DNA of 54,881 bases from Sanchytrium tribonematis (taxonomy: Eukaryota). The translations under genes were made by a program, and so were the position numbers. The stretch's first letter is position 1; each line of letters begins with the position of its first letter. Below are positions 4,674 through 54,881 of the stretch, in pieces. The stretch covers positions 1 to 54,881 of the forward strand of contig JADGIG010000010.1 of the NCBI GenBank assembly GCA_018985235.1. Direction: 5' to 3'. The notes beneath the pieces are model-generated. The model did no database searches, was not told the origin of the DNA, and saw only the letters and a program-made list of their open reading frames with translations.

Positions 4674-5628
4674 TCATGTAAACCACTGATTTGCTTGGTC
4701 ATGAACTCCATTGAGAGCACCTTTACTTTTCGATTCCTCGGCTTGGTTTGGTGCAGCTTCATATATTTGCCAGTTTTTTTCTCCAGTCCACTTTAAAACA
4801 CTAGCTTTGTTGCCACATCTGTAACCTAAATTAAATTAGAGTACAGTAGTTTGGAGCACTCCATACAGTGAGGCACTTTTGATCAAATTGCTCCTGATAT
4901 CCCTCCATGCAAAGCTGATGAGCTCTTGCAACATGGTCTAAATTATTAATTTCGGTAAATTTATCGATGACTTGCTTTCCATAAACATAACCTGTTCCTC
5001 GAGGACTAAGTTGAAAGCCTTCGACTCCATTAGAAGGATCTGACCACATGATGTCACTCATGAGTCCATCAGCCGGAATCTCCATAAACCTATCGATCAT
5101 TCGCAATTGATCTAAACGCTGCATCTCTGGAGAAAGGCCACCATGAACCACAAACATTCTTTTACTACCACCATCAATTTCAGCTCCTAATGGTAAACAA
5201 TCAAAAGCTTCCATGAACCAATTCCAAATTTGAGTATCTGGATACTTTGATTGACACTCAGCATAAAAACCGTATGTACTACTAATTGTGCGACTTTCGT
5301 GATTTCCTCTTATTAAATGAATGGTTTTAGGGTACAAGATTTTATAAATCATTAAAGTCAGGATTACATGCAAACTGTAAAATCCACGATCGACGTAATC
5401 TCCCATAAATAAATAATTTGCTTTTTGAGGGCTTTCATATAATTCAAATATGTACAACAAATCATTGTATTGTCCATGTAAGTCGCCAACAAGTTGAATA
5501 GGCGTATCTAGTGCAATTATATTATTTAGACCTAGCATTATTTCTTTGAATTTCATAACGACCAATTCTATTTGATCGACAGATGGCAATTGCTTTTTAA
5601 TTAATATTTCAAGTATTCGTTTTATCAT
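4674..5628 (-). CDS. PP2A-related Ser/Thr phosphatase (PPG1-like); 2 exons (5628-4845, 4825-4674)
   Basis: Motifs GDLHG, GDYVDRG, RGNHE and RAHQLC. Removing the intron restores the conserved SAPNYCYRCGN; the protein ends QWFT*. Confidence 0.9.
4826..4844 (-). other. 19-nt intron GTACTCTAATTTAATTTAG
   Basis: Splicing restores the NYCYRCGN motif. Confidence 0.95.
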
Positions 5629-5683
5629 CGAATTCAGACCAGTGTTTCAAAAAGTATAGTTTTTTATTTTATAGACAAAGAGA

Positions 5684-5887
5684 TCAGACTGAGCACGCAG
5701 TTTTACACAACTTCACTGCCCAATTCTTGCAATCTTCAACTGTCATAATCTTCAGCAACTCTACTTTGCACCCAGCGTTTATTTTATTAGTCAAAGCGTT
5801 ATTCGCACAGGTTGCGATACAATTATCAATATTTTCTGCGCACCCAGAAAAACATAGCGAGAATATTACAGCCATATGAAAAATCAT
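5684..5887 (-). CDS. Small secreted cysteine-rich protein (67 aa)
   Basis: Hydrophobic N-terminus and 8 Cys, including two CxxxC; CCAATCAAA upstream at 5930. Confidence 0.65.
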   Translation of the reverse strand: MIFHMAVIFSLCFSGCAENIDNCIATCANNALTNKINAGCKVELLKIMTVEDCKNWAVKLCKTACSV

Positions 5888-5989
5888 AATATTAGTTTGC
5901 GATACTTTTTCTTTTAAATAGTTTGTTCGCCAATCAAAGATCAGTCACATTCCTGAAAATCAAAAAGTTTCTAATAATGTATAAATTTA

Positions 5990-6741
5990 TTATATACGTT
6001 GACGCTCATTTTCCATTGGTGGAATCTGATCATTGGCAACGCCTAATCCGAAAGTTGAATCTAATACCGGACTGTCTATCCTCTGATTCGGATACTGAGA
6101 GTATTGTTGGTCATATTGCTGACCATACTGAGGAGCGTATCCAGCAGAATCGTAATCATACTGAGGCTGCCCTTGTTGCTCAAAGCCATAGCCTTGAGAT
6201 TGCATGGGTTGTTGAGTAGGAAGATTATATGCTTGGGTGTAAGAAGTTGATTGCTGCGCAGAATTTGGACTTAATGAGTTGTTGCTTTGGTTTCCAAATT
6301 GAACAGGTGCTGTGGTAGCACTTAAGTTAGGTCTGCTACCTTGTAGTTGGATAGGTCTATGCATCCAAGGTAAAACAGGGTCGGCATCTTTTCTTCCACT
6401 TCCTCCGCTAATCGCTTTGGCACATCCATACAATACAACAATTAATACCAAAACTCCAGCAACAACTGAACCAATAATTACATAAACACCATTCTTTGAC
6501 CAAAACGATTCTGATTTGGCAGTTGTTCCAGGTGTCGTTCCATCAGTTGGAGTGTCACTAGGTGCCTCTGATGGACTATCAGTTGGAGTATCACCAGGCG
6601 TTGAAGGTGTTGAAGGTGTCGAAGGCGTTGTGGATTACTTGAAGGCGATGGCTTTGGTTCTGTAGTTGTGGGAGGTGTAGGTGCAGTCGTATTTGATGTT
6701 TTCTGAGCAAACAAAATTGTAAGGAACAATAGCCAGATCAT
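5990..6741 (-). CDS. Type I membrane protein with Thr/Pro/Ser-rich ectodomain; apparent frameshift near 6633
   Basis: A signal peptide and TP-rich start lie in one frame. TTPSTPSTPSTPGDTP...TM helix...QY-rich tail lies in a second frame that is open from about 6634 to 5990. Confidence 0.65.
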
Positions 6742-7132
6742 TTTAGAAAGTTGATTTTTGTCAAAGTGGAGCCCTTGTTATAAAAAATTCTCAAATGATT
6801 ATCTGGCGAATCAAAGGGCGTAATTTCGTTCCCCAAATCAAATCATCCCTTACTGACCAATCAAATGACTATACATGTGATTAGCACGGGCTTAAGGTTC
6901 TTGACGAATAATCGAAGACAAACTTGAAAAATGGCAGTATACACCTTTAAAATTTGAGTTTAAAGATTAACATCAAAATTTCATTTCTAGGCTGAATGTT
7001 TGCAATCTCAATCTGCACGCCTTGGGATTGAATTAATTGTTGTGCCCAAGGAAAGCAAGGCAAAATATTACAAATCAGATCGCACAAATGACTTTTGGGA
7101 ACTACTTTAAGAAAAACATACCCAAGCCAGCT

Positions 7133-12345: not shown

Positions 12346-15205
12346 ATGAGTCAACAAGACGAAAAGAAAGAAAACCGTAAAAGCAAGGTTGCTGGCGCTA
12401 TTAAGGGTGCTGGCGACACTTTGAAAAACAACGCTGCAGTAAGCAAAGTTGGAACAATGACCAAAACTTTTAAAAAAGGTCCACAAGAAGCAGTTGACTT
12501 GTCACAATTGGATGCAAGCAAAATTAAGGTTATCGAGAGAAAACACAAGAACCGAACCTATATGTTTGCGATCGAGGAAGATGCTCAATTTTTTGACCAA
12601 CTAGCTGCTGAATCTGTAAATACACCATGGGAGCGATTATTGGAGAAATATTACACTAATGATTGTCCAAACAAACGATTAGACGCGATCGTAACCTCTT
12701 TATACGAAGATAGAAATCCTGACTGGGTTTTTCAATTAAATGATCCAAATGCTCCAGCTGGTCCATCTAAGAAAGACCAGATGAAAAAGAAAGCTAAATT
12801 AAAGGTGAAGGAAGTGACTGAGGATGAGAAAACTATTAAAGCACATGCTGAGCATGAGTTGTTAAAAGGATTATTGTTAGAAGACTTGATCGTTGTTCAA
12901 GAAGAACTTTACTGGTTTGTATACACTCCGTTCGACAAACTCTGTGGAGAGGCACAAGAAATGCAATTAAGATTAGACCTTGATTTCGACACTTGGAAAG
13001 AATTATATGAAAAGGCAAAGAAGGACGCTTTAGAGGATGTAATCGCCGCCGACCAGAAAGAAAAAGCTGGTGGAATTGGAGCAAAAATTAGAGTCGCTGC
13101 AAGAAATATTTCTAAAGAAGCCAAAGATGAGGTTGGAAATTATTTGGGTAATATTATGCAAAATTTTACTGAAGTCAAAGTTGAAGACTACTCTATGTCT
13201 GCTAAATTTTACAAAGGAAAAATTTATGACTATCAAGGTGGTCGAAAACCAGGCTCTGCTGCAGATGACGATATTGCTGAGGACAAACACATTTTGTGTC
13301 GCCAATTTTTCAAAAATTTTCATAGAATTATGATTACAAACAACGTCATTGGAAAAATGCACGTGCATAATTATCCTCGACCAGGTTTGAAAACTACAGT
13401 TCAAAAATTATTATTGGACAAAGTTATTGCAGACAGTATGGTGATGCATGACTTGAATTGTAAAGAGGAAAACGACAAATTCCGAGAAGGAGTTGTTAAA
13501 AGGAGACTCCATTCCAAATGGGCACGAATTACTCGCATGTTTAGCACTCAGCCTTACGAGGATATCAGAAATTATTTTGGAGAAAAAATTGCTTTATATT
13601 TTGCCTTTATGGGTTTCTACATGAAATGGTTGATTTTTCCTTCAATTTTTGGAATAATCTCTTTGGTAATTGGTTTAAATAACCCTGATTTGGCTACAAA
13701 CATCACTGTTATCTTTGATACCCCATTTACAATGGCTTATGCTGTATTAATGGGATTATGGTCTACGACATTTTTAGAATTCTGGAAAAGAAGACAAAAC
13801 TTTTTGGCATATCAATGGAAAACTTGGGAATGTGAAGATGTTGAAATTGAGCGACCAGAGTGGTTTGCTACTGAAGTTGAATTTAGCACTGTAACCTGGA
13901 AATTAGAGAAAAGCTATCCTGGTACTTCATTCTAATTTAGAGGGCTGGCAAAGATTCCAAATTTTCACACATATGATCATGGTCGCCATTCTTATTTGCG
14001 TTGTGATTTTTGTGTATGTTGTAATTTTAACTTTAAAACCAGTTTTGAAGCAAGCTGGTGGTGGCGCTCCTGTCATCATGGGTCTTCTGAATGTAGTGGT
14101 TATTCAAATCATGGCAAAAATCTACGCTGGTATCAGCAAGAAATTGAATGACTTGGAAAATTATGCTACTGACACTCAACATGAAGATGCTTTGATTTAC
14201 AAGAGATACTTCTTCAAATTTGTCAATACCTATGCTGCTGTTTTATTTGTTGGTTTCTTTAAGGAAGATGCAATGCCTGCTATTGCAACCAACTGGTACG
14301 GTGTAAAAGACAGAGATTCGCTACATTGCATGAACTATTCTTGTTTCTTTGAACTTGCAATTCAATTAGTAATTGTGCTTCTTGTTTCTCAAACCATCTC
14401 TGCTTTGACTCAAATCATTATCCCAAAAATCAAAAATGCTGGTGTTAAGCGAAAGGCTAAGAAAGCTGGTGATGCCATCAAATCTTTGGATTACGAAGAC
14501 ATCGATGAGACTCAATTTACTGTCATCCAACGTGTTAAGATTCAACAAGGATTGGGAGTTTACGAATTTGATGAATACGAAGTGAAGATCCTCCAATTTG
14601 GTTTTGTTGTCATGTTCGGTGCTGCGCTCCCAATTGCTCCTATCTTTGCATTAATTGTGAACTTGTTAGAAACTAGAACTGATGCTATTAAAATTATGGC
14701 TGAATTTAGACGACCAGTTCCTGTCAGAGCTAAAGATCTTGGAAGTTGGTACACAATTTTGAGCGCTGTTAGCACACTTGCTGTTGTTATTAACGCATTT
14801 TTAATTGGTTATCAAAGCACATTATTCAGAACTCCTGATTATACAACTTGGGCTATTGACCAACAAAATTGTGTAGAAAATACTGATGGTGATGTTGATG
14901 CCGATGGAAACTATCCTTTAGTCTGTCAAAATCCTAGCGCTGATGTCTCCGTAGATGCGTTTAATGGATATACTTTTGCTAGACTGCAGTACAGATTTAT
15001 GTACATTGTGATCTTTGAACACTTAGTTCTAGCTGCAAAAGTTTTGTTGGCTGCTATCATTCCAGATATGCCAGCTGTTGTTGCAAATGGACTTGCAAGA
15101 GAAGCTTATCAAAATGAAAAGAGAGCTGCAGGTGATGACTTTGAGGAATACACCTTGACTTGCGATGATATCTTAGAAATCAGAGGAAACCGCAAGAAAT
15201 TTTAA
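12346..15205 (+). CDS. Anoctamin/TMEM16 family; 2 exons (to 13921, from 13941); start at 12346 or 12319
   Basis: Motifs QPYEDIRNYFGEKIALYFAF, FLEFWKRRQ, QFGFVVMF...PIAPIFAL.VNLLETRTDA.K and IVIFEH. Confidence 0.93.
13922..13940 (+). other. 19-nt intron GTACTTCATTCTAATTTAG
   Basis: Joins the two anoctamin ORFs in frame (YPEGWQRFQIFTHMIM). Confidence 0.93.
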
Positions 15206-15658: not shown

Positions 15659-17507
15659 ATGTCTTCTGAAGTGCCTGTTTTTTTACATTCAAAAAAAGTC
15701 AAAGATATACCATTTTGTGTATTGTTTTTATTAATGATAGTGGCCCAATTTGTAGTTTTATTCTTTGCAGCCAAAGATGGAAATCTAACCTATCTGACTA
15801 AGCCTTATGATTCTAATAACAACCTTTGTGGTGTTGATAATGGCCCAATTAATGGTCCAGACTACTCCAACAGACCATTTTTGTACTTCATTGATCCAGT
15901 GAAAGCTGCAAGTGGAAAATCAAAAACTGTTTGTTTAACTGAATGTCCCACAGAAAAAACAGTCGAATTCTCAAAGTCAATTTGTGTTGATGGAGTAAAA
16001 CCAGACAACCCAATAAGTTGGCAAACACAAATAGATGCAGGCAACTGTACGTCAATAGTATTTGATAGCAAGGTAGTATTGAATAGATGTATCCCAAAAG
16101 ATGCGAAATCTGTTACCACAGGAGTATTGGATAAGTCAGCATTATATAGCAGTGGCACCTCCTCGGCACAAGTAATTTTTGCCGACGTGACTTCGACATA
16201 TCCTTATATTTTGATCGCAATGGCTTTTAGTGTTGTAATTGCATTCGTTTACTTAATATTGCTAAATTATGTCACAGCGATAATGACATGGATATCGATT
16301 ATACTAGGGCAATTGATTTTAGCTGCAATGACTGTTTATTCATATTTTGAATACGCAAGTAGAGTTGAACTGGACAAGACGGAAACATCAGACCAAAATT
16401 CTTGGGAAATCAAAATTACTTTATCAGCTTTGATTATCCTTGGATTTTTTACGGTGCTTTACTTCTTTGTTCTGATTATCCTTAGAAAAAGAATAAATGT
16501 AGCTGTTGAGATCATCAAGGAATCGTCACAAGCATTAAGGCAAATGAAAAGTTTATTCATTTTACCAATAGCGACTGGAATCTGCCAATGCATTGCGATT
16601 GGATATTTTTTTGTAGTTGCCGCATTGTTGTTAAGCGTCGATAGAGTCCCGGGTAGTAAAATTCTTGGTGATAAAAATATTTACCAATACTTACAATGGT
16701 ACAACTTGTTCGGATTATTGTGGGGAGTCAGCTTCATTTATGGTGTTCATCAAACAACAATCGCTGGTTCGGTTGCAGCATGGTATTGGTCATTAAACAA
16801 AAAGAATATACCAAAAAATCCCACTATTATTTCATTTCTGAATGTGATTAAGTATTCGCTTGGAAGTATTGCTTTGGGCTCTTTCATCCTTGCTTTTGTA
16901 AGGTTTTTGAGACTAGTTCTAGTTTATTTGCAACGAACTTCAAAGTCCAAAAACTCCATGGTTAAGAAAGTTTTTTCTTGTTTGCAATGTTGTCTTGGGT
17001 GTATAGAAAAGCTAATTAAATTCATGAACAAGAACTCATATGTCGTAATTGGTATTTATGGAACATCATTTTGCAAATCCGCGCAAACCGCATTTGGTCT
17101 TTTATCGCGAAATGCACTTCGTTTGATTGCAATTGAGTCGGTTTCTGGATTTGTAATTTTCATTGGAAAAATGTTCATTTCTTTGCTTTCAACAGGTCTT
17201 GGGTACTTTCTAATTAGATATTTAGATAAAATTGGAACTATAATTGTGACATTTCCTCTGGTGTCAGCAGCTATAATTTTAGTATCTACATACGTGCTTT
17301 CGGGAATTTTCTTTGACGTGGTTGATATGGCTATAGGTAAAACTTATTAATTTAGACACAATTTTCATTTCATTTTGTGACGACGTCGAAAGAAACGATG
17401 GAAGTGCCGACCATCCTTATTTTATGTCTGACAGATTGAAAAAGATTGTTGGAGTAGAGGACAAGGCAAAAACAATTAAACAGTCTGAAGTGGAGGACAA
17501 GGCTTGA
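15659..17507 (+). CDS. Choline transporter-like protein (CTL/SLC44); 2 exons (to 17336, from 17356)
   Basis: Motifs DS.NNLCG, AGSVAAWYW and YSLGSIALGS; the spliced C-terminus reads IDTIFISFCDDVERNDGS. Confidence 0.93.
17337..17355 (+). other. 19-nt intron GTAAAACTTATTAATTTAG
   Basis: Restores the conserved CTL motif IDTIF..FC.D.ERNDGS. Confidence 0.95.
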
Positions 17508-17712: not shown

Positions 17713-18643
17713 ATGTTTGTAAATGTTATTTACGCACAAATTGCACACAATTCCAACTATAAATATGAATACGCTAGAAGCCATAGTTTGTATGCACCTT
17801 ACACAGAATTAGAATTAAGCAGCAAATACTGGGACTTTGGACAAGACACTGTTGTATTCACCCAGCTTGGTGTAAGACTAACTCCTGACTTTCAAAGTCG
17901 CAGAGGATGGTTATGGTCCAAAGAAAAAATTAGTGGTTCATTTGAAGTTGACCTTGAGTACAAGATACATGGACATGGACAAGGACTGTCTGGAGATGGA
18001 ATGGCATTTTGGTTTGTGGAAGACAAATTTGAAAATGGTGAAGCTTTAGGATATAAATCTAACTGGAATGGAATTTCTGTCATGTTAGACACTTATAATA
18101 ATGGAAGAAATGACTATTTTAGGCCACATGCTATAATGGGATTGTATAATGATAAATCCAAATATTACAATAAAGATGCCGATGGAAAAGAAATGAGTAT
18201 GGGTCACTGTAGTAAAAATTTGAGAAACAACGAAAAGGCAACCAGAATGCGAATTGTTTACATAGAAAAACAAAAGTTCCAAGTTTTCCACAACAAGGAA
18301 TCATGGGCGGATTGGGAGTTATGCTTTGAGGTAGACATGTCGAGCAAAACGATGCCAAAAGAAATGTTTCTCGGATTTACTGCAGAGACTGGTGGGTTGA
18401 CTGATAATCATGACGTTGTATCAATTAATACAAACAAAATCACTTTGAATGTAATTTGGAATAATTTAGTCTGGTGGAAGCTCGTACCAAGATACAACTG
18501 GCTCCACTTTTGGAAGTGGTAACAAAGAATCCTCATTGTTGTGGAATTCAATCAGAATTTTGTTATTTGTTCTGCTCATATTCGTAGTTGTTGTAGCTTA
18601 TAGATCCTTGTCAAAAACAATGAATCAGTCCAAGAGGTTTTAA
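17713..18643 (+). CDS. L-type lectin cargo receptor (VIP36/ERGIC-53 family); 2 exons (to 18450, from 18470)
   Basis: Motifs GDGMAFW, DTYNN and GFTAETGGLTDNHDV. The spliced form gains a TM helix and a C-terminal SKRF* sorting tail. Confidence 0.92.
18451..18469 (+). other. 19-nt intron GTAATTTGGAATAATTTAG
   Basis: Restores the TM helix and KRF tail. Confidence 0.93.
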
Positions 18644-27635: not shown

Positions 27636-30600
27636 TTAATCAATGTGGTATTTCCTAAGCTTTTTCAATAAAGCTCGTTTTTCTTCCCTTTCAGATTCAA
27701 GTTCGACTTCCAGGTCTATCACTCGCCTATTTCTTTTAATTGCAATGGCTTTTAAGTAATATATCCAGACACCCATGCACAATATCGCCACTAGCAAGAC
27801 AATAGGGCTGATTACAAAAGAAAGAAACTTTCTAAAAGACTCGGTCTGTGAATTAGAATCATTGCTATTTGTCAGAAAGTCTTGAAGAATCAAAAACGAA
27901 CCACCTGGAGAGGTGGATTGCGTCTTATTATAGGTTGTTTGGATAGATTTCTTTACACCTAAAAACGCTTTTGCATTTAACAAAGTTTGATACAGCAACG
28001 GATCCTCATATCCAAACACATTATTATATTGCGATGTTTTGTTATTGACATCAGTGTTATCAGACCGTAAATCTCCTCTAACAGAAAGAAACATACCCTC
28101 AGTAGTGGGTCTAGGTGAAGAGCCACCAATAGAAACATTTGACGCTTTTGAGCAGCTACTTCCTGAATAGAGATCTAGTCCTCGATAAGACTCAGTGTTA
28201 TTATAAACACAAAGTCCGAATGAATCAGGTCTAGATGCGTTCCAATACAAGTAGTCGCAGGTTTTTATATCCTGTTCTGCTGGTATAAATCCTGGTCCAC
28301 AATATCCTGGTTTGGTCATAACAAATCCATAAATAAAAGGTCCAATAACGACAAAAAACGCAGCAATTAGTGAAACCAAGAAATACATTGTTTGTTTGTG
28401 TGCATTGTATATCCTCCTAGGAGGAGAACCCAATGATCTGAGAACAAGCGTTTTGACCCAAAAAATTACAAAGTACCCCACTATTGACAAGTAAATAACT
28501 GATGGCGCTAAAGCCGTGCCAATCCAGACTATTGACTGCCGATATGCGAGTTCCAAAATGTTCTTGTTCATTTCGAATTGATAACGTTTGAAAACAAACT
28601 TTTTAAAGAGTGCAATGCCTATCGTGGTAAAAGTGGTTATTAAAATTTCTAACCCCAATAATATAATCAGCGTTAAACCCAAGTCATATTCCCAGCAATT
28701 TTGATCTCTTAATAGAGTGTCCGATATATGGGAAGTATCCTGCGTACTATAGCTCTTATCTAAAGAGTAATTTGAATAAGTAGATTTGCATATATTGCCA
28801 GAATTTCCGGTAGATGTGATTAATACTACAAACAATCCCTAAATAAAAATAAATTACACCCATTTTAGCAAAAAAGGACAGAAAGATCGCAAAAGCTTGT
28901 TCTGTTACCGGATCAGCAAAAGTCATTATTTTAGCAATGATTTCAAACATACTAGGGAGAATTAAATTCAAGGTGGCTATTAGGAATGGAGTATCTTTTG
29001 AAGAATCAATTGAAGAACTATTTCCAGTTCCCCCTTTGAGGGCTTGTGTAAAAGTATTCCATTCAGGCCGTTTAGTAACCGAGGCCACAATTAACATGGC
29101 AGAAATCCCCAATAATAGGCAGGTAATCAAGACACCGCAAATTCTTCTTGCAAGAAAAAGCTTGTTTTTATATTCTTTCTTTTTCTCTTCTATCTCTTCT
29201 GCAGTAATTAAGGTACGAAAAACATTTGCTATAGCAAAGTATTGATTCAGAGATGCCTCCTTTCCTTTCGTTCCGAAATTCCAAGAAGTAAATGCAGCAG
29301 TTGAAAAGGGGCACTTTTCATCCGAAGAAATCCGATTATCTTTCAAGTACTCATCTCGTAACCGTCTCAACATTTGCACCATACTAAAGACCAAAAATAC
29401 TATAATCAATAATAAAAGCAGAGGAGCCGAAGCAGTGTAATTGTCGGCGTCAAAGTTGATATATGAAGGAAAAGTCGCATAGAAAGCTGCACCTGATAAT
29501 CCCTTTGGTGTTTGAGCTGCTGGGATAAAGGCGATGCTGTACAATATTGCTGTCATTAAATTAGTGAGGACCAGCCATCTTAATAGTCGAAAAAAGCTCC
29601 CAACTCCTGTTCCGAATTTACCCTCCAAAGTTCTGATTGTGCCTTCCCATAAACTAAATGATTTTTTAAAATTTTCAATTGCAAATAAAGCATTTTTTTG
29701 AAATCTGTTAAATTTAATGGCAGCCCAACCCATATCTGCTCTTTCATTTTCAATTTTGATGGCTCTAGTCTTTTGTTCTTTAACAAGTCCAACAAAAGGT
29801 ACACCCTCGTGAGAGCGTACACTTCTCAACTTGTCAGATAATTTTTGGGAATCAGACGTTGCATCTTTTCTAAAGGACTTAATCACTTCAGGTTTTTTAG
29901 CAGGCCTTGGTTTTAATTCATAATTTTTGGCATTAAATTTCCCTTCTGCATTGTTGTCTCCCTCACTAGATTCATCTGAATTCGACTCTATCTCAATTTT
30001 TGCGTCTTGCGTTTCTTCCTTTTCCTCAACTTTTTCTATAATTTCCGCTCCTTGGCGAATTTCTGTGTTTCTGGACTTCGATTGGGACATCGATATTAAA
30101 TTAGATCTATCACCTTGGTCAACCTTTTTGATGGCTCTTCGACCTTGTGTTGGAGCAATATTGGATGCAGCTGGCTTTGAGTTTCTTGATTTTATTTCTG
30201 GAAATTCTAGTGCTACAGAAGTTCTGACAAAGCTTTCATCTGTTTCGTCGTCCAGCTTATCTACCTTCGGAGGTGGCTCAAAATTTAATGGTTCTTCAGG
30301 CTTCAAGTCAATAACAGACAAGTTTGTAATGGACAAGTCATCGAAACTCTTCTTATTTTTAACTAGTTCAATAGACTCCAGCGTGAAATCAGCATTCGTA
30401 CTGCCTTCAAAATTTATCCTCAACGGAGAACCATCTCTTTTTAATGTATCGCTATCTACTTTATCACCGTTGCTCATGTCTAAGCTCGAATTTATGCTTT
30501 GATCGGCATCGGGAATTCTAGGACCCCGGGTAACTTTTCGTACAGAATTTTTCTTATTTTCCATGCTTTCATTAATGGAAGTAGGAGATTTAGGTTCTTC

Positions 30601-31657: not shown

Positions 31658-32924
31658 ATGGGACAGACATTGAGTGAACCGAAGTTAGAAAGAAGTTTAG
31701 AGATCTTGCAAGACGGAAAATTAACCACAAAGTCAGGAAGCGACGCAAAATCAATAAAACAGTCAAACATGACTGCCGTGGCATGTTCGGTTCAAGGTTG
31801 GAGAATTACCATGGAAGATGCCCATATCATGTTTACCGATGAGGAATTCTATTCTTTTGGGGTATTTGACGGTCATGGTGGTGACAGTACTGCAATTAAA
31901 GTTAATGAAAAATTTCCTGATATTTTGAGAACATTATTTAAAGAACACGCAAAAGTCAACAAAGATCCAAAAAGTATTGAGAAGTGGTTAGTCAATTCAT
32001 TTTTAGACATGGACAAATATCTGTTTAATTCAAATGATCAAAGTGGTTCAACTGCCGTTTCATGCCAAATCCAATATCCACATGTTTATACAGCAAATGC
32101 TGGGGATAGCAGAGCGATTTTATGTAGGAACGGAGATGCGTTCGGTCTTTCTTATGATCATAAACCCACTTTGGAGTCTGAATTGAAAAGAATATATGAA
32201 AAGGGTGGATTTGTTGAGTTTGGAAGGGTGAACGGCAACCTTGCTCTTTCTCGCGCATTTGGAGATTTTGAATATAAACAAGCATATCACCAAGGCAAAG
32301 GAGCTTTGGAATGTATCGTAACATGTATGCCGGATATTTCACACGTAGAATTAACAACTGAAGATGAATTTATAGTCATTGCTTGCGATGGGATCTGGGA
32401 TTGTCTAAGTAATCAAGAGTGTGCAAATATTGTAAGAGAACAAATTGCCACAATTTCGATAGATTATAACAAAGAAACTGATCCGGCTTATCAACCTTTA
32501 CCTTTTAAACGGAGTCCTGAAAACAAAGGTGAATTCGATTGGCTAGAATTGGTTGCTGAACGTGTCATGGACAAATGCATAGCACCAAAAGCTGAATTTG
32601 GTGGAGTTGGTTGTGACAACATGACTCTCCTGATTATTGCGTTATGTCATGGCAAAACTCTAGTAGAATGGAAACAAGATATTGAAAAAAAGTGGAGGAA
32701 CTCGAAAACTAGTCCCCCTTCGCCCACAGCATCCCCAACAAAACAATCTCCTGTCCATTGGATATTAGGTGCCCCTCACGCCCCAGAGCCTCAGTCGGCT
32801 TCAGCGCAACCTCAAAAACCTATTGAAGGTATTTTTTATTAATATAGAAGATAATGATAGCGAAGAAACAGCTTCAGACACACCACACCTTACTCCATCA
32901 CAAACACCTAACATGGATAGCTAA
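31658..32924 (+). CDS. Protein phosphatase 2C (Ptc2/3-like); probable 2 exons (to 32828, from 32848)
   Basis: Motifs MGQTLSEP, QGWRITMEDAH, FDGHGG, RVNGNLALSRAFGD, ACDGIWD and GVGCDNMT. Confidence 0.95.
32829..32847 (+). other. 19-nt intron GTATTTTTTATTAATATAG
   Basis: Matches the consensus and extends the low-complexity tail to TAA at 32924, with AATAAA just after. No conserved motif confirms it. Confidence 0.8.
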
Positions 32925-32979: not shown

Positions 32980-35900
32980 CTAGCTCTGAGTAGGAGCTCG
33001 TCGCTTATTGTTTTTAAATGCATCTCCAGTCTTCATGCTTTCAAACAATTCATCCATAACACCTTTGCGCTCAGGGCCGTCCATAATTGTACTTTCTTGG
33101 TGTTTGAGTACAGCAGATTGCTGAGTCTTCATTATTTCAACTTTGAGCTCAGGAATTTTCAAGTTGTCTCTTTTAGCCTTTGCATATAGATTAAAAAATT
33201 GTGAAAATGTTCCAAAAAAGGTCTCTGGAGTAGCGAGTTTTGGATCTTCGCCAAAATATTCAATGGTCTGATCAAAAGAGGCTTTCATGTCACTCTCCAT
33301 CTTCTGTAAAGATTTGAGGTGCTTCAAGTTTAAGTCAATAAAAGACCGCATGACAATGTAAAAACGATCTTCTGGCGAACTTGGAGGATCGTGATTAGGA
33401 AGCTCATTTTCAATATCTCGAAATCCTTTCTCGATCTCTCTAACATCTGCGGCTATAGTTTGTAATTGAGCTAAATTAAAAGCAAATACCCTTGGCAACT
33501 TTTTCAATTTCAGGGAACTCAGTCTCAAAATTATCGATTTCTGGGAAAGACTTCTGAATGACATAAACCAAGTAATTCATCATGCTAATTTGAGGGTTAG
33601 AAGATTTGATATTAGACAATTTAGGAAGCAACTCAATTGAAAACCCATAGGCTCCACCTCTGGTTGAATCTGCGTTCAAATAATTTCCTACCGCCAAAAC
33701 CACCTCAAAAACTCTTCGCAGTTTCTTTGACTGAAATAATTGATTTGCCGCTTTCGAAATCATTTCTATTTGGGGTCTTGCATCTTCTATCCTCTCATTC
33801 ATTTTTTGCTTAAAAAGCAAAGCTTTTAATCGCTGTTCACATCTTGGCACTAGCAACAGTGCACAGACAAACTGCTCAGCTTTATCTAATTCAGCAATTT
33901 TTTTCTCTCTTTCATCTACTGGAGAAGTTACATATTCATGAAATAAGTCAGACTCGTCTGTCGACGGTATAGCTCCTAAAAATTGATTGATTAGCTGTTC
34001 ATTAAGCTTTTCTTCTTGTACCTTAATAATTGTCTGCGTAATTTCCGAGTTGCTCATTTTTATTCTAGCAAGAACGATTCCAATATTGTATGATTTTTTA
34101 GAGTCTAGCAAGGTTATTCCCTTTTTTGCAACTGGCAACATCAAACCGACACCTCCAACCGGAGTTTTCTTAGAAGTATCGACATTTTGAATGTCCACTT
34201 TTGCTGCTTTGGCTGCGAAGAGATCTTCTAATTCGTCAAGGTTCATCTTATTCTTTCTGATGGCCTCCTCTGATTCAGGAGTAACATTCTTCCAGAATGT
34301 TTTCATGACAGAATTGTTATTAATTTTGTTCCATTGCAATTGTCGTAGTTTGTTCTTTGGTTGAATTTTCTTTTTTGGTGGTAAACCTGAAATAACAGCG
34401 GGGCCCGCACCAGGAGGGCCTGGAGGGCCTGGCGGTCCGCCAAGTCCTGGAGGAGGTGGAGGGCCACCCATAGCAGGCGGCGGTGGAGGTGGCGCGTTGC
34501 TATTGAGTGGGGGTGGCGGCGTAGTGTTTGTTTCCTCTACTGGGGCAGAGTTTGCTCCTTTTGATGACATGCCAATTTTGATACCATATTGACGGAAAAA
34601 ATCTATAAATTCTGTTTTTTTAGAATCGTCCAGATTTCCAATAGTTGGTATGGAATCGATAGATAATGCGTTAAACTTTTCTAAAGCTTCTTGACCAGTC
34701 GATTGAATTTTTTCTTTTAAATCGCTATTTTCCTTTTCATACTTCTCAATCTTTGACTGCATTTCTGCCAAGACAAGAGTGACTTTATTTTCTTTGTTGT
34801 CTTGTAGGCCTGATATGAGATCTTTGTATTGTTTTCTTTCCTCTGCCAAAATTCTTTCTACCTCTGCCAATTTTTCTACGGCCTTGGAAGACCCTGATTT
34901 GGATCCTTCTTTGAGAGTTTCTAATTCTTGCATCTTTTCATTTAAAATACCTTGCAGCTGCTGTTTAAATTTTTCAGCTTCTAAAGTGACACGTTTAACT
35001 TCCTCATTTTTCCCTGCGATCAAACCTTCCATCTGAATTAATGATTGAGTCTGAACTTCAATGTGTTTTCTTAATTGGGCTGCGTCACCAACTGCTTGCT
35101 CGTACTCCTCTTGTTTAACAAGCGACTCATAGACAGATTTCATCTCTATAACATTTGGCTTATCAACTTGTGGGTAAGGATCAAAAACAATTTGCTTCAA
35201 AACTTCGTTTATAATTCTCCAAAATTTCGCCCTTCGAGGGACATCGTTCGGTAATAATAGCAAATATTTGAGAGTTTTTTGAAGCCAGCTATATGTGAAA
35301 TAGTCAGCGTTAACTCTCTTGAGCTCTTGAAATAAGTCATCTGGATCAGAAATGTCAATACTTACAATATCTTTCATGTCTTTAAAAAATACGGTATCCC
35401 TATCAGCTTCCTCTTTGTAAATATCAAGCTGAGTTTTAAGCTCTTTATCGTCCATCTTTTCCATACTTGAAAGTGCTTTGGTAACACCTAAGTCAAGAAA
35501 CTCGAATCTAACGCCTAATCTGTTGACATTGTCTTCTACGTTGTTAATTATGGCATTCATAAAAGTGATTGCAGCTTTTTGAAATTCTACATCCAAATTT
35601 CTGTTAACCAGGTCTTCCATAATGCTTAGGAATCTGAAGGACTCTCTTTTTGTTCTTTGCACCTTAGTCATAGAATCGAGAACCAAATTGTGTCCATTAG
35701 GTACAAAGCAAATAGCCGCTAATAGATTAAGAACGATATTCTTTGCAGCGATTTCTTCACAATCGTAGCAGAGAACAAGTAAGTAAATAATATCCGGATG
35801 TTGGAGCACTGATTTTAATCCGATGGAATTATTTAAACAAGCCTTCATGAATCTAACACAATTTTGAATGATAGGAAGATCATCAGAGATTGGAACGCGT

Positions 35901-40267: not shown

Positions 40268-41378
40268 ATGGTAAGTTAATTTGGCAGATGCTTAACCACG
40301 ACGGTCTTCTGAATTTGATGACAGCAATGTGGCAACTGACAATATATACTAACGTAGAGCTCGAAATCACTTGACAAATCATACAATGAAAATTTGAGAC
40401 TCCGAAATGACGTGCCACTACCACCCGACGGATTTCTTATTGAAGACCTTTCGGAATGGTATGATGTTGAAATCAAAGAAAGACTGGTTACTAAATCTTC
40501 AATAACTGCAGGAGATGCTTTTACAATTGGAGCTTTGATTGAAGAGCCTATTAACCTCTTTAAATTGGGAATAGCTGGGGATTTTAATGAAATGCCACCT
40601 AATCAAGTAGATATACCCGAAACCGACGCAATATTCTTTCATAACAAAAGCAATCGATTTGTCGAACGGAAGGAACAAGATGTCAGTTGGATGCGGAAAT
40701 CGAATCAGATTCAGGAATCTAGGGTCAACAGGGAGTCAATTTTAGACAAATTAGGTAAAGCCAAAAAAGAAGAGAAATTTGTGAAAGATATCAAAAGCGT
40801 TATAGCCTCGTCTTTTGAAGCTAAGGTGCCCTCCGTTCATCCTAAGACTAAGAAGAAAGCCAAAAGAGTCATTCCTTTGCATCCTTATTTCCAAAGTTTC
40901 GGACCAGAATACCAACAGTTTACGTTTCCAGATGGTGTTGATTTGGATGAAAATGAGGAGGAGCGACACTTGAACACTGTTATATTGAAACCCATCAAAG
41001 ATCATTATGGGCTTTTTAAATGTGGTCCAGAACACTCTGAAATAATGCTCAAGTGTAGAGAAGAGGATAGAGATCTTGCAAATGAAATTATTTATTCTAA
41101 GCACCGAGATTACCAATCGGACAAGACCGATTCGAACGAATCTAAATTTCTTAATATTGTTGTGCAAGATAAACATGCATATTATATACCTGTTCTGAAA
41201 AGGAATACTATGAGAAAAACAAGAGTATTTTACTTTTACTTAGCGTTCGAGGCACGAGAATAAAATTGATAGAAAGATATTTGTTAAATTTGAGCATCCT
41301 ATAGGTGATGAAAAGCGCAACTCGCTGTTGGATTTAGGGATCAAAGAGCAAGATATCCGCAAATTTTCAATAAATTGA
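40268..41378 (+). CDS. PAF1: RNA polymerase II-associated factor Paf1; 3 exons (40268-40270, 40358-41224, 41244-41378)
   Basis: Motifs RLRNDVPLPP, VSWMRK, I.SSFE...HP.TKK and AYYIP. The long ORF lacks an in-frame ATG unless the ATG at 40268 is spliced on. Confidence 0.75.
40271..40357 (+). other. 87-nt intron with GTAAGT donor, TACTAAC branch site and TAG acceptor
   Basis: ATG|GTAAGT...TACTAACGTAG|AGC gives MSSKSLDKSYNENLRLRN in frame. Confidence 0.88.
40281..40342 (+). ncRNA. Intronic box C/D snoRNA, snR73/SNORD35-like
   Basis: Degenerate C box (CAGATGC); guide CACGACGGTCT at 40297-40307 complementary to LSU rRNA AGACCGUCGUG; D' CTGA at 40309, C' TGATGA at 40316, D CTGA at 40336; TTG/CAA terminal stem. 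Confidence 0.85.
41225..41243 (+). other. 19-nt intron GTATTTTACTTTTACTTAG
   Basis: Matches the consensus; opens 44 more codons to TGA at 41378. Confidence 0.85.
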
Positions 41379-42377: not shown

Positions 42378-44142
42378 TTAAGAAATCAAAAACACAAATA
42401 GAACGATAAGCAGAAATGTAAATGGTGCAACAATAGCCTAAATAAATACGAAATACCAGCCAAACTGCGGCTACTAATAATTTAAAAATGATTTCCAAAG
42501 CTACGAAAATGACCAATGCAGTAAAAAAGAAATATAGAAACCCTACGATTGACCTTTTCGTCAAACTCTGATCGCCTTTCATCAAAGAGACCAAATCGGT
42601 TTCATTTACAGGCTCGTCTACAGCGAAAGGAGCCTTTCCCCAGTGCGTGGCTTTGTAAGCCCATGTAGCTAAAGCTGCTGTTGGTAGAAGGACTAAACTC
42701 AACAAAGTTAAGCTAGATCCTCCAGTCAATTTTTTATATAGATCGGTCACAAATGGCAAAACGACTTGGAAAGTCAAAATAGTCCACAGGATTTCAGTGA
42801 TTGCGTAAAAAGCCAATGTTGCCACTTTCACTCCTAGTACCAATATGTCGTCAAAGAAATTGAAAGACGCTTGTAAAAATCTTAATACAACACTAACAAG
42901 GAAAACAGATATTTTCTTGGTACCTTGTTGGACTGCAGTCAAAGCGCTTTTTAGGGCATCCTTTACAGCGTCCAAGCCAGTGTGATTGCTAGGTAAAGTA
43001 TCATCCAAAGTTTGCAAATGGTCGAAAATTTCACTGCTGCTTTCTCCCTCAAATTCCATAAGCTTTCCATTTTGAGCTACGACGTTCATCAGGTATTGGC
43101 CCTGAGGTGCTGGTGATTTGATTTGTTCTGCTTCTTTTGGGACTTGTCCATGTAGAACTTTTTCAATTGAATCAACTTTTTGGGCAAGATCTCCCTTTAA
43201 TTTGGTCAACTGCTCAATCGTTTTGGCTTCATTTGCTTTAATGTATTTTGGAGATTCGTCTCGGACGTTCAGTATGTTCTTTTCCAGCCATTGATGACTA
43301 CGCACAACATCTCCCCACGCAAAGAATGCCTTGACTGCATTAAACACCTTGACCAAAGTCAATCCAATTTGCTTCAATACCCATCCAACAGCTCGGAACG
43401 CATTTTTGATTCCGTTTAACAGAAATTCTTTGATTCCTTGCAGAGTTTTAACGACAACTTTAATAAATCCATTTTCACCATCTGCTTCCAAATGAGCTGA
43501 TTTTACATCAGCATCAAGAATATCATCCATATTTGTATTTCCTTTGTGCGTTGATTCCTTGAAGTTTTGCAAAGCAGTCAAGCTTCTAACTACCTGGTCT
43601 ATATTTTGGTTTTTGACACCTTGAATATCTGACAATTGCTCAGCATCAGTTCTTGAAACCCTAGTCAAAGCATCTTTGGTTGGGTCAACAATGTCTTCGT
43701 CATCCATCCAGACTGGAGCTACTTTGAACTTTGGGACGTATCCACTTTCATCAACAATAAATGACAAATCTGCATTTCCATTCTGTGCTGTCTCTACGAT
43801 GACACTATCGTACGGGCTCAATGTTGTTTGCTTTGGGTAACCTGTTGTACCATCCAAATACAAGATTTCTACCTGTTTGGATCCAGTATTGCTAAATTCC
43901 ACGGGCGCATCCCCCACAACATTTTCACCACTTTTTACCAACACACTCAATTTGTGCACCAATAATTCATCAAGATCTTTGTTGTAATCATTCATCAGAG
44001 TGTTACCGGTTGCGAATGTGTAATCAGCATCCTTAACGCAATACCCTCTCACAGAGTTGTACGAACTTCTACAACTAGCGCCTTTGTAAACAAAACCATC
44101 ATTTTCAGCAAATGGTGCAGCTAATACAATTGTTGCTAACAT
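42378..44142 (-). CDS. Uncharacterised secreted/membrane protein with hydrophobic C-terminal half; probable 2 exons (44142-42457, 42437-42378)
   Basis: Short signal-like start, amphipathic middle and several hydrophobic helices. Splicing ends the gene at 42378 and removes the apparent overlap with the ceramide synthase. Confidence 0.8.
42438..42456 (-). other. 19-nt intron GTATTTCGTATTTATTTAG
   Basis: Matches the consensus; gives a hydrophobic last exon AIVAPFTFLLIVLFVFLIS* followed by AATAAA. Confidence 0.85.
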
Positions 44143-44443
44143 CTATAGTGAGGCGGGATCGTTAGCTTTTAAATCTAAAATTTGGCGAATATTATCCATG
44201 GATATGGGTAATATCACAACATTGCACCAATCAATAATTTCTCCTACTTGACTCAAAATTGCCAACTTGTGCATCGATCGCAAAATCTATTTAACAAAAG
44301 TGTGACAGTGTACATTAAATGCAGACAGAAAATTTGTACAACACATACTCAAATGCCTTGAAATTTGAAGCAATGTGGAAGTAAATGTACCGACTGGGCA
44401 ACAAATTGTAATTTGTTATTGACAATGTATTAAATTTATTTTC

Positions 44444-44596: not shown

Positions 44597-44661
44597 TTAA
44601 ATAAATGAGATGGCTGATATATATAGTATAACGTTTTGACGACGTCGCAAAAGGAGATGAT

Positions 44662-48531: not shown

Positions 48532-48566
48532 GTTTGAAGGACAATATTCTTAATTTTTTTTGTTAC

Positions 48567-52540: not shown

Positions 52541-52614
52541 AATTTTAATATCCTTGATGGTGTGATTGCATATTATCACATGCGGATTTCCGTAACTTCC
52601 CCTTTAATTCTAAA

Positions 52615-52854
52615 ATGTCGGAACTTTTCCTAGTGAAAAGACTATTGACTGTCTCCAGAACAAAGTCGAACAACGAATTAAGAATCAAGGTCCTATCAAA
52701 ACAAATGATGCTTTATATTCTCAACTTATATCCTTTAACTTTCAACGCGTCCTTGTATCCCAATTTGAACCATGAGGAAGTAATGCAGATTATTCGGCAT
52801 TATCCGAATGCCCTTCATGAATTGGAAATGTATCGCAATGTTAGTTTGCAGTAA
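52615..52854 (+). CDS. Possible small hypothetical protein (79 aa)
   Basis: ORF with AAAATG start context; no motif. Confidence 0.4.
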   Translation: MSELFLVKRLLTVSRTKSNNELRIKVLSKQMMLYILNLYPLTFNASLYPNLNHEEVMQIIRHYPNALHELEMYRNVSLQ

Positions 52855-52890
52855 ATGTTTGTAATTTTGTAATGGATACACTTAAATGAT

Positions 52891-53139
52891 TTATTTTTTC
52901 CGAGGATTTAAACCTATTTCTTTCTCAATGGATTCCTTACAAGTCAGATTTTGCCTCAGCAATTTCGGAAGTAGCTTAGGAATATCATTTATAGGAACCG
53001 TCGCCATTAAATATGCTATGGGCTTATCAAATAATAAGCCTTCAAGTGATTTTTGAATTACAACGCGCTTGTGAATAGAACACTGGCCTAGCAACTTGAC
53101 TTGAGACTGTGAAATAACAAAACCCACATCAATGTTCAT
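52891..53139 (-). CDS. Possible small hypothetical protein (82 aa)
   Basis: ORF with a CCAAT box about 60 nt upstream; no motif. Confidence 0.4.
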   Translation of the reverse strand: MNIDVGFVISQSQVKLLGQCSIHKRVVIQKSLEGLLFDKPIAYLMATVPINDIPKLLPKLLRQNLTCKESIEKEIGLNPRKK

Positions 53140-53251
53140 TAGAAACAGTCAGTCATTTAGTTTTATACCAAAATTAGCCGACTATCTAACTTTTTATACA
53201 TTTGATTGGTCATTCATTGCTAATCTTAAAACGTGTAGAGAAGTAATAAAT

Positions 53252-54881
53252 TTATTGTGAAAGACTTTGCTGATCTACCAACGTTCGATATGTACCGCCC
53301 AATGCATATAGCTCGTCGTGGGTTCCCATTTCCACAATTTTACCCAGACTCATAACCACAATTTGATGTGCATCTTGAATAGTCGACAACCGATGTGCGA
53401 TAACTATTGTGGTACGGTTTTGTGAGGCGCTTTCAATTGCTTCTTGAACGACTTTTTCACTTTGAGTATCCAAGGCGGAAGTTGCTTCATCCAATAACAG
53501 AAACTTCGGCTTTCGATAAAGAGCTCTTGCAATAACAATTCTTTGCTTTTGACCACCACTTGCAGCTGTATTGTTAATCTGCGTATCGAATTTTTCTGGA
53601 AGCGAATCTATAAAACTAAAGATGTTAGCATTTTTTGCGCACTCTTCTACTCTAGCCTTATCAATTTCATCGTAATTAAATCCAAAAGCAATGTTTTCGT
53701 AAATAGAACCTCGAAATAAAATCTAAATAAGTTATAATTACCGGCTCTTGAGATACCAACGCCATCTGACTGCGCAAGTGTTGAACATTCCATTCTTGTA
53801 AATTAAATTTTTCAACTTCTACTTTTCCTTTTTGTGGATCGTAAAATCTTTCTAAAAGTTGAATAATAGTCGACTTTCCACTCCCAGACTCTCCAACTAA
53901 CGCTGTTGTTTTTCCAACTGGAAATGCTAATGATATGTCTTTTAAAATTTGAGCATCTGGTCTTCCAGGATAGTAAAATTCTACACTATTAACACTAGCA
54001 GAACCTTGCACGTCAGCAGGTTTAACTCCGTCTGCGTTTAAACTATCAATGGCCGATTTACGGTCGAGTAGTTCGAAGAAACTTGTGGCTGCAACAGCTG
54101 CTCTTGTGATAACCGAGAGCTGGGACAATGCCTGTCCAACGCCAAACATTGAGAATAGAGCTGGGAATATCACACCAAACACATCTTCAAATTTGATTCT
54201 ATTATTAATTAGCCACACAGAACTCAAGTAAAAGGCATATGCCAATACGAAAAATATTGAAGATTGCGATAAAGAAAAGTATAGAGACCCCTTAAGAATT
54301 CCACGCAACGCCTTTTTATGAGGCACTTCGGTGCGGTACTCATAATAGTCGAGGAATGCTTCTTGTCTATTAAGGCTGAAAACTGTCCTGATATTTTGAA
54401 TGGAGTCACAAGCAATATTTGAAGCTTTCACATATTCATCGCGAAGTTTCTTAGTCATTCCTTCAATGATTCTTCTTCGCATGTACCCACTGAAAATAAT
54501 TAGCGGGACAGCGATTGCAATAAGGGCTGCCAATTCGGCGTTGTGATAAAAAGCGACAGCTAAACCAGTAACAATTGTTGAAACAAATTGGACTAGCACG
54601 CCCAATAATTGTCCTGTCAAACTTTTGATTTTGTCAGCTTCTTCTGCAAGTGCACTACTTAATGATCCGCTTGTATGTAAAGGATCGTCAAAAAATGCAA
54701 TTTCTTGCTTTAGTAATGTATGAAAATTTAAACTTCTTACTTTAACTGTCAACCTTTCACCACTTATAGAAAAACACATGTATTGCAAAAATATCACAAA
54801 AAATGCGCCAACAGCTAATACCACAAACATCAAAACCCAAAATATATACCCATCACGGATTTCGTCTGAAGGTTTAGCCAG
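53252..54881 (-). CDS. ABCB/MDR-type ABC transporter, C-terminal half (5' part outside the window); intron at 53723-53741
   Basis: TM domain, Walker A GESGSGKS, SQEP|ILFRGSIYENI, SGGQKQRI, LLLDEATSALD and IAHRLSTIQ. Confidence 0.95.
53723..53741 (-). other. 19-nt intron GTAATTATAACTTATTTAG
   Basis: Restores the Q-loop VSQEPILF and the downstream NBD. Confidence 0.96.

What the first reader, a model, noticed from the sequence alone, without database searches (positions are those of the whole stretch)
4674..53741. One tiny intron per gene, skewed to the 3' end
Seen: each gene has only one tiny intron. Last coding exons are about 60-190 nt in nine genes (PPP phosphatase 152, Shank-like 138, CTL 152, lectin 174, Ras 120, PP2C 77, Paf1 135, 42-kb gene 60, Pre8 192) and about 470-490 nt in ABCB and the formin. 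In TMC and anoctamin the intron is still past the midpoint. N-termini of Rps27, Ras, PP2C, Pre8 and Nop58 are uninterrupted. Known: intron-poor genomes such as budding yeast and microsporidia show the opposite 5' bias. Inference: a terminal intron may be retained for 3'-end formation, export or surveillance where 3' UTRs are nearly absent, or loss proceeded by an unusual mechanism.
Basis: partly seen in the sequence, partly recalled or inferred. Interest (0 to 1): 0.8.

Follow-up and report, generated by a model that had tools for sequence, protein, structure and literature searches.

The report
Tiny 3'-end introns in sanchytrid fungus
In this stretch of a compact-genome fungus related to the algal parasite Amoeboradix, 13 of 39 genes carry a single predicted intron of only 19-21 bases, always in the back half of the gene (the reverse of yeast), likely because introns this short are cut out well only near the end of the transcript.

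Summary
The pattern is real but narrower than titled. The window is a sanchytrid fungus (closest named relative Amoeboradix gromovi, 78% in Ppg1). 13 of 39 genes carry one predicted GT-AG intron (12 of 19 nt, one of 21 nt); 26 have none. All 12 whole genes have the tiny intron in the 3' half (mean position 0.82, P=3e-5), and a position-blind scan finds no hidden ones. Relatives break at the same codons in Pre8, Ppg1 and Paf1, so those introns are old in the clade. In the 42-kb gene three relatives lack the window's intron and one has a different 19-nt intron, also 3', so at least one gain is the simplest reading. Best mechanism (inferred, 0.4): minimal introns splice efficiently only as terminal introns, which filters both survivors and gains. 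Closest precedent: the ciliate Fabrea salina. I found no description of sanchytrid introns; the published proteomes were called without splicing and are truncated at these sites. No RNA or whole-genome test was possible.

The parts
4826..4844 (-). 19-nt intron, phase 1, Ppg1-type PPP phosphatase (gene 4674-5628), position 0.84
   Evidence: same break in P0123, P0124 (A. gromovi), P0125, P0242
8336..8356 (-). 21-nt intron, phase 0, ends in an in-frame TAG; ankyrin/FERM-F0 'Shank-like' gene (8198-9526), position 0.89
   Evidence: no homolog checked across the junction; last exon is coiled-coil-like (below cut-off)
13922..13940 (+). 19-nt intron, phase 1, anoctamin (12319-15205), position 0.56
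   Evidence: Pfam PF04547 model 1-110 then 113-460 across the frame change
17337..17355 (+). 19-nt intron, phase 1, choline transporter-like gene (15659-17507), position 0.92
18451..18469 (+). 19-nt intron, phase 0, L-type lectin (17713-18643), position 0.81; last exon supplies the membrane helix and a KRF tail
   Evidence: the tail's likeness to VIP36/ERGIC-53 is recalled, not tested
28839..28857 (-). 19-nt intron, phase 0, TMC (27636-30744), position 0.61
31378..31396 (+). 19-nt intron, phase 0, Ras-family GTPase (30928-31516), position 0.79; last exon supplies the CaaX end
   Evidence: last exon's top 7 PDB hits are KRas C-termini, weak (E about 0.9)
32829..32847 (+). 19-nt intron, phase 1, PP2C (31658-32924), position 0.94
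   Evidence: motif score, codon usage and gap size only; weakest call, no homology across the junction
33471..33489 (-). 19-nt intron, phase 1, diaphanous formin (32980-36331), position 0.85
   Evidence: Pfam FH2 model 2-275 then 265-371
40271..40357 (+).
   Evidence: only TACTAAC on the sense strand of a gene start; homology to P0244 begins 30 codons upstream of the first in-frame Met
40283..40343 (+). candidate box C/D snoRNA (SNORD35-like) filling the Paf1 5' intron; D' 40309, C' 40316, D 40336, degenerate C near 40286
   Evidence: Rfam RF00211 16.1 bits, E 0.26 on 131 nt, below the gathering score of 36; not found in the whole-window scan; boxes
41225..41243 (+). 19-nt intron, phase 0, Paf1 (40268-41378), position 0.87
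   Evidence: relative P0244 (64%) stops 4 codons past the same site
42438..42456 (-). 19-nt intron, phase 0, 42-kb gene of unnamed family (42378-44142), position 0.97; absent from three relatives
   Evidence: last exon 14 of 18 identical to the unbroken end of P0245
49152..49170 (+). 19-nt intron, phase 0, AAG acceptor, proteasome alpha-2 Pre8 (48567-49362), position 0.75
   Evidence: picked by a spliced aligner; same break in P0002, P0003, P0121
53723..53741 (-). 19-nt intron, phase 0, ABCB transporter, 471 nt before the stop; 5' part of the gene lies outside the window
   Evidence: Pfam ABC_tran model 1-70 then 77-137

Best explanation
This sanchytrid fungus carries one predicted 19-21-nt GT-AG intron in 13 of 39 genes, always in the 3' half, likely because an intron of minimal size is spliced efficiently only as the terminal intron, where the 3'-end processing machinery would help define it. 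Shown: the sites, lengths, shared grammar (GTA...T-N-A at -8 to -6...AG), the positional skew, conservation of three sites across the clade, and presence/absence differences in one gene family. Inferred: that they are spliced by the ordinary U2 spliceosome through a 14-nt lariat; that there is too little room on 19 nt for U1 and U2 to define the intron by themselves; that upstream tiny introns were therefore costly and purged, while terminal ones persist and new ones can fix only near the 3' end. A 5' intron survives only in the long form with textbook signals, and the one example appears to host a snoRNA.
For: Skew: 12 of 12 in the 3' half, P=2.9e-5; 10 of 10 homology-backed ones, P=3e-4; 9 of 13 within 200 nt of the stop, 0 of 13 within 200 nt of the ATG. 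A position-blind matrix scan ranks the 13 introns within the top 15 hits, the other two being antisense. No gene has two tiny introns (P=0.03). The only 5' intron is of another class: 87 nt, GTAAGT/TACTAAC, snoRNA-like. The filter seems to act on new introns too: P0245 (62%), P0246 and P0256 read through the window's 42-kb-gene intron, and the P0247/P0256 pair implies a different 19-nt intron at 0.85 (one offset of 6 fits; 0 of 400 random peptides fit). 3' UTRs are very short (convergent gaps median 23.5 nt, n=8), so these introns sit close to the cleavage site. A. gromovi is annotated with Prp8, U1-70K, U2AF65, CBP20, Y14, Mago, eIF4A3/Fal1. Coupling of the 3'-most intron with 3'-end formation is reviewed in PMC3325483 (passages).
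Against: No RNA evidence for splicing or for the mechanism. Anoctamin and TMC have last exons of 1,265 and 1,203 nt, formin and ABCB about 480 nt, far for a 3'-end-coupled step. Equally short or shorter introns are spliced at many sites per gene in mikrocytids and nucleomorphs (PMC10245619 passages), and Stentor and Blepharisma have 15-nt introns with a 5' bias (PMC13685798), so small size alone does not force a 3' position. 'At most one' is weak in this sample. The gain rests on one family, on unspliced gene calls of unnamed contigs, on a pairing of P0247 with P0256 inferred from equal contig length and overlap, and on a tree whose inner order is not resolved; a loss-only history needs 4 or more events against 2, which a high loss rate could supply. 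One window, 39 genes.
Confidence: 0.4

Rival explanations
1. Mutational loss bias: cDNA or RNA-templated recombination erased ancestral introns but spared the last one, because a short last exon plus a tiny 3' UTR leaves little homology for a crossover downstream of it. The survivors are ancestral terminal introns that later shrank.
For: [quoted passage not shown] Positions fit 'last of about 4.6 uniform introns' (Beta fit, KS p=0.81). Pre8, Ppg1 and Paf1 sites are shared across the clade. Fabrea's 3' skew is ascribed to loss of 5' introns.
Against: The same logic should spare ATG-proximal introns, and no tiny one is seen. The 42-kb family points to at least one gain in the 3' 15%. The Pre8 site (residue 196, phase 0) was found in 0 of 29 other eukaryotic loci aligned, though nearby sites 199/1 and 201/0 were, and these loci are not known to be fungal. 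No protein is annotated 'reverse transcriptase' in the stored part of the sanchytrid annotation table (about half of proteins are annotated).
Confidence: 0.28
2. Tolerance or surveillance: tiny introns splice poorly, and retention near the 3' end costs least (near-full-length protein), or one 3' junction complex lets nonsense-mediated decay watch the whole upstream CDS.
For: Short microsporidian introns splice at about 25% efficiency (cited in PMC13644364). A. gromovi keeps Y14, Mago and UPF1-like genes. All 5 phase-1 introns put an in-frame TAA at the branch site against 2 of 7 phase-0 19-mers, and the one 3n intron ends in an in-frame TAG (p=0.028, post hoc), like the stop-codon safeguard in heterotrich ciliates.
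Against: Retention would remove essential parts (ABCB second nucleotide-binding domain, Ras CaaX, half of anoctamin's membrane domain). The longest genes, which would gain most from surveillance, have no intron (P4-ATPase, Ski3).
Confidence: 0.17
3. The skew is a local accident or an ascertainment effect of this window; genome-wide the introns are unbiased once UTR and long 5' introns are counted.
For: One window, 13 introns; one long 5' intron was indeed missed by eye; weak 5'-UTR candidates exist (2375-2395, 11943-11965, upstream of the 42-kb gene). PP2C and Shank-like calls lack homology support.
Against: P=3e-4 with only the 10 homology-backed introns and 0.004 with the Paf1 5' intron added; the scan is blind to position; the one extra intron found in a relative is also 3' (0.85); alignments of Elp2, P4-ATPase and CTL to solved structures show no intron-like in-frame insertions in the parts shown.
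Confidence: 0.1
4. The terminal intron is kept because 3'-end formation or export of these mRNAs needs it.
For: Very short 3' gaps; known coupling of the last intron to cleavage and polyadenylation.
Against: 26 of 39 genes lack any intron and have equally short 3' gaps (p=0.67); close homologs of the 42-kb gene do without it.
Confidence: 0.05

Closest known systems
Fabrea salina (heterotrich ciliate) tiny introns with extreme 3' enrichment (PMC13685798; PMC9004412)
   Same: Streamlined genome, about two thirds of genes intronless (68.2% there, 26 of 39 here), mostly single-intron genes, one dominant tiny length, GTA start with a fixed branch A six bases from the end (15-nt motif given for Blepharisma), strong 3' skew.
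   Different: Ciliate, 15 nt against 19-21 nt here in a fungus, so independent origin. There the skew is ascribed to loss of 5' introns; here at least one gain is indicated, and a second class (long, textbook signals, snoRNA-like) sits at the 5' end.
Intron-poor fungi: budding yeast and microsporidia (PMC532390, PMC10245619, PMC8476143)
   Same: Few introns, mostly one per gene; short introns in microsporidia; snoRNA-hosting introns kept in intron-poor fungi (RPL7, NOG2), as the Paf1 5' intron appears to be.
   Different: Their introns are 5'-biased, often in ribosomal protein genes; here Rps27 is intronless and tiny introns are 3'.
Chlorarachniophyte nucleomorph and mikrocytid ultra-short introns (PMC10245619)
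   Same: Introns at the minimal size with a narrow length range (16-17 nt in mikrocytids; 18-21 nt in nucleomorphs, recalled).
   Different: Those are numerous per gene (over 800 in about 300 nucleomorph genes); no 3' confinement in the passages read.
Spared 3'-terminal introns in Cryptococcus and filamentous ascomycetes (PMC2395259, PMC532390)
   Same: The last intron is rarely lost.
   Different: Those genomes stay intron-rich with 5' introns kept; here nearly everything but a 3' intron is gone.
Introner elements
   Same: Recent gain of short introns of uniform length.
   Different: Intron cores are unalike (mean 3.8 of 8 identical positions in AT-rich sequence); no element-like similarity beyond the splice signals.

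Membership tests
U2-type spliceosomal introns | GT...AG ends with a branch A near the 3' end | tested here: met
   13 of 13 GT-AG; T at -8 and A at -6 in all
U2-type spliceosomal introns | Removal restores a continuous homologous reading frame | tested here: met
   Pfam continuity for anoctamin, formin, ABCB; higher scores for spliced Ppg1 and Pre8 against 4 of 4 homologs each; 42-kb gene. Not shown for PP2C and Shank-like
U2-type spliceosomal introns | Junction seen in mRNA | not testable with these tools
   No RNA run was listed
U2-type spliceosomal introns | Spliceosome encoded in the lineage | tested here: met
   Prp8, U1-70K, U2AF65 annotated in A. gromovi, a relative, not this genome
Sanchytriomycota | Groups with a named sanchytrid | tested here: met
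   Ppg1 78% to A. gromovi EP00835 against at most 57% for the non-clade hits listed; clade 100/100 in a one-gene tree of 24 rows, long branch, position within fungi not resolved
Fabrea-type 3'-skewed tiny-intron genome | Genome-wide 3' enrichment | tested here: inconclusive
   Met in this window; no genome held
Fabrea-type 3'-skewed tiny-intron genome | Skew made by preferential loss of 5' introns | tested here: inconclusive
   No fungal outgroup DNA; Pre8 site in 0 of 29 other loci; gain indicated in one family
Introner elements | Many near-identical copies at new sites | tested here: not met
   Cores unalike; three sites shared across the clade
SNORD35/snR73 box C/D snoRNA | Score above the Rfam gathering threshold | tested here: not met
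   16.1 bits against 36
SNORD35/snR73 box C/D snoRNA | C, D', C', D boxes with the family's guide before D' | tested here: inconclusive
   D', C', D present, C degenerate; guide and a second block align to the SNORD35 consensus; SNORD59 scores about the same

The most novel reading that the evidence does not exclude
Sanchytrids run a 3'-anchored splicing system, the mirror image of yeast and microsporidia: 19-21-nt introns, among the shortest in fungi, that work only as the terminal intron and are still being gained one per gene near 3' ends, while a separate long class with textbook signals survives at 5' ends only to host snoRNAs.
Probability: 0.3. Interest if true: 0.85.

Novelty: new variant of a known kind. 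Interest (0 to 1): 0.68.

Why it matters
The link between intron poverty and 5' bias is a main support for intron loss through poly(A)-primed reverse transcription. A fungal lineage with the opposite bias, arrived at independently of the ciliate Fabrea, gives a second natural test of whether mutation or RNA processing decides which introns stay, and two public sanchytrid assemblies make the genome-wide test immediate. Ongoing gain of 19-nt introns without an introner would bear on how new introns arise. Practically, sanchytrid proteomes were predicted with TransDecoder on genomic contigs, and database entries for Pre8, Ppg1 and Paf1 end inside the intron; if this window is typical, about a third of proteins lack their C-termini, which can affect gene-loss and domain analyses for this phylum.

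Tried and rejected
Whole genome: none held. RNA: no RNA holder listed for 12200-22100; no evidence either way. Related DNA: metagenome scan gave 54 loci, none closer than 58% over the full length and none with the 19-nt motif; prokaryote and viral collections gave no sanchytrid contigs. Alternative genetic codes: standard stops give the clean gene set. Hidden in-frame introns: 3n candidates in CTL (15 and 21 nt) and P4-ATPase (21 nt) align as coding to solved structures; those in Dhh1, formin, Lag1, Elp2 and Ski3 were dropped on low matrix score and coding context. The 19-nt look-alike at 7469-7487 is GC-richer, falls outside the top 50 matrix hits and lies in an open frame; left out, not disproved. 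Other 5' coding-intron models (Shank-like, Nop58, formin, Ski3 and others) score low and would cut recognisable N-termini. One pattern search was mis-specified at 20 nt and found nothing. The spliced aligner's extra 66-nt 'intron' in Pre8 is taken as the fungal C-terminal insertion missing from the 234-aa reference. Rfam whole-window scan: 4 chance-level hits. Paf1 had no useful PDB match; Atlas gave only sub-0.9 unnamed clusters for the 42-kb protein. Earlier scan notes: nothing relevant. Ancestral positions in human or yeast genes were not used, since they would rest on memory.
Full report
What the window is. It is 36.7% GC and almost all coding under the standard code. I annotate 39 protein genes, 49.5 kb of CDS, with convergent gaps of median 23.5 nt. 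The phosphatase is a Ppg1 ortholog; its closest named relative is Amoeboradix gromovi at 78%, with unnamed ENA proteins at 75-79% and the non-clade hits listed at 57% or less. These form one clade, 100/100, on a long branch in a one-gene tree of 24 rows. The window is therefore a sanchytrid other than that A. gromovi entry. No whole genome is held.

The observation. The 19-mers share GTA, T at -8, A at -6 and AG in 12 of 12. Removing them joins Pfam models in register for anoctamin, formin and ABCB, raises scores against 4 of 4 full-length homologs for both Ppg1 and Pre8, and gives Ras a CaaX end (weak). All 13 last exons score best in the predicted frame. PP2C and the Shank-like gene have no homology across the junction and rest on motif, codon use and gap size. 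A matrix scan of both strands for 18-25-nt GT/GC-AG segments ranks the 13 among the top 15 hits; the two others are antisense, and leave-one-out scores are 6 or more for 12 of 13. So a tiny intron of this grammar in a 5' exon, a UTR or in frame would probably have shown.

The skew. Leaving out ABCB (5' end outside the window), positions run 0.56-0.97, mean 0.816; 12 of 12 are past the midpoint, P=2.9e-5 against uniform. With only the 10 homology-backed introns P=3e-4. Nine of 13 lie within 200 nt of the stop (15.6% expected, P=2e-5) and none within 200 nt of the ATG. Two corrections. First, 26 of 39 genes have no intron, the longest included. Second, Paf1 has two: its main frame opens after a stop with no Met for 78 codons, a relative aligns from 30 codons before that Met, and an 87-nt intron with GTAAGT and TACTAAC directly after an ATG supplies the start. 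Counting it, 12 of 13 are 3' (P=5e-4). This intron looks like a box C/D snoRNA host: SNORD35 has the best E-value on the 131-nt stretch (0.26) but 16 bits is far below the family cut-off of 36, and the whole-window scan missed it. SnoRNA-hosting introns are known to persist in intron-poor fungi (PMC8476143, passages). That no gene has two tiny introns is suggestive only (P=0.03 weighted by length, 0.10 unweighted).

Relatives. Gene calls on ENA contigs and the EukProt sanchytrid entries are unspliced, so they run into introns. Of 121 Pre8 proteins stored, the 4 that end within 15 residues of the junction are the window's and three relatives at 84-89%; of 121 Ppg1 proteins, the 5 that do are the window's, A. 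gromovi and three ENA entries. Their tails fit introns of 19, 20 or 21 nt, one length each (6 of 7 tested; the Paf1 relative's tail is too short to tell). These sites are thus old within the clade, and Pre8 and Ppg1 relatives have no break further 5' (P0127 is partial). The Pre8 site was found in 0 of 29 other eukaryotic loci run through a spliced aligner (29 of 54 fetched; near-duplicates and short transcript-like contigs skipped); these are not known to be fungi, so ancestry beyond sanchytrids is open.

The 42-kb gene. P0245 (62%) and P0246 (48%) are unbroken and end in the window's predicted last exon (14 of 18 identical), which confirms the splice and shows the intron absent in them. P0247 and P0256, both from a 980-nt Logan contig, overlap at exactly one of six offsets, where 0 of 400 random peptides fit at any, and the overlap reads as a 19-nt phase-2 intron of the same grammar at 0.85; P0256 lacks the window's intron. 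So among four close homologs there are two different single 3' introns and two genes with none. Every two-step history includes at least one gain; loss alone needs four or more steps. The inner order of the tree is unresolved, paralogy is possible, and fungi lose introns far more often than they gain them, so gain is likely, not shown.

Mechanism. I favour a processing filter (0.4): a 19-nt intron leaves little room for intron definition, works as the terminal intron with help from 3'-end factors, and so only 3' introns persist or fix. This accounts for the skew, the single copy, the different build of the one 5' intron and the 3' place of the apparent gains. It is strained by last exons of 1.2 kb in anoctamin and TMC and by 5'-biased 15-nt introns in Stentor and Blepharisma. 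Loss that spares the last intron (0.28) has precedent in Cryptococcus and ascomycetes (passages) and fits the positions, but should also spare ATG-proximal introns. Tolerance or nonsense-mediated decay (0.17) is helped by Y14, Mago and UPF1-like genes in A. gromovi and by in-frame stops in all 5 phase-1 introns (post hoc, p=0.028), and hurt by intronless long genes. A need of 3'-end formation for the intron (0.05) is unlikely: intronless genes have equally short 3' gaps (p=0.67). Chance or ascertainment: 0.1.

Against what is known. Fabrea salina is the close parallel: 15-nt introns, 68.2% intronless genes, extreme 3' enrichment ascribed to 5' loss (PMC13685798, passages and sections 7-8; PMC9004412, passages). 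The pattern is therefore not new in kind. I found no account of it in fungi or of sanchytrid introns: search listings (needed only 2 of 3 terms and is not a clean test). In the sanchytrid genome paper 'intron' occurs once, in the references, and proteins were called with TransDecoder on contigs (PMC8371127, passages and section 18). Its main supplementary PDF and one table were too large to read and might mention introns; most subscription papers, including aphelid genome papers, are not in the library. Also seen as passages only: PMC3325483, PMC10245619, PMC13644364, PMC11649378 and PMC10459994 (nothing relevant).

Verdict. Real predicted introns (about 0.9), a real skew in this window and probably genome-wide (about 0.8), mechanism open. 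New variant of a known kind; interest 0.68.

Noticed in passing
window 5990-6741 (-): A signal-peptide, Pro/Ser/Thr-rich membrane protein gene changes frame about 30-35 codons after its ATG with no intron of the usual grammar: assembly slip, pseudogene or an unusual intron.
   Followed up: partly
all 13 tiny introns: All 5 phase-1 introns carry TAA at the branch site, an in-frame stop if retained, against 2 of 7 phase-0 19-mers; the one 3n intron ends in an in-frame TAG; no phase-2 intron in the window (post hoc p=0.028).
   Followed up: partly
window 40283-40343 (+): SNORD35-like box C/D snoRNA candidate filling the Paf1 5' intron, below the Rfam cut-off.
   Followed up: partly
window 51392-52540 (+): One ORF joins an Sld2/Drc1-like N-terminus (PF11719) to a Tubby C-terminal domain (PF01167).
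   Followed up: no
window 42378-44142 (-): The 42-kb gene belongs to an unnamed family with relatives in the chytrid Quaeritorhiza and, by weak Atlas leads, bacteria and ascomycetes; it ends in Lys-Arg followed by a very hydrophobic peptide kept in all close homologs.
   Followed up: partly
window 44143-44165 (-), 2375-2395 (+), 11943-11965 (+): Weak 5'-UTR intron candidates: a CTAAC...TAG directly before the 42-kb gene's ATG, and two low-scoring 21-23-nt segments upstream of the PhoD and anoctamin genes.
   Followed up: partly
window 2388-2418 and 48531-48567: Head-to-head genes with only 29 and 35 nt between start codons (Elp2/PhoD, Ski3/Pre8), implying overlapping or minimal 5' UTRs.
   Followed up: no
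window 42438-42456 (-): The intron holds a short internal repeat that reads like the Val-Phe codons found just past this site in intronless homologs, a hint of origin by local duplication; not tested.
   Followed up: no
window 11932-12132 (+) and about 44445-44597 (-): Possible extra small intronless ORFs of 66 and 50 codons with positive codon scores, not counted among the 39 genes.
   Followed up: partly
PMC8371127 supplement file 4: A. gromovi DBP2 is listed as two ORFs on one contig, as a longer internal intron would give.
   Followed up: no
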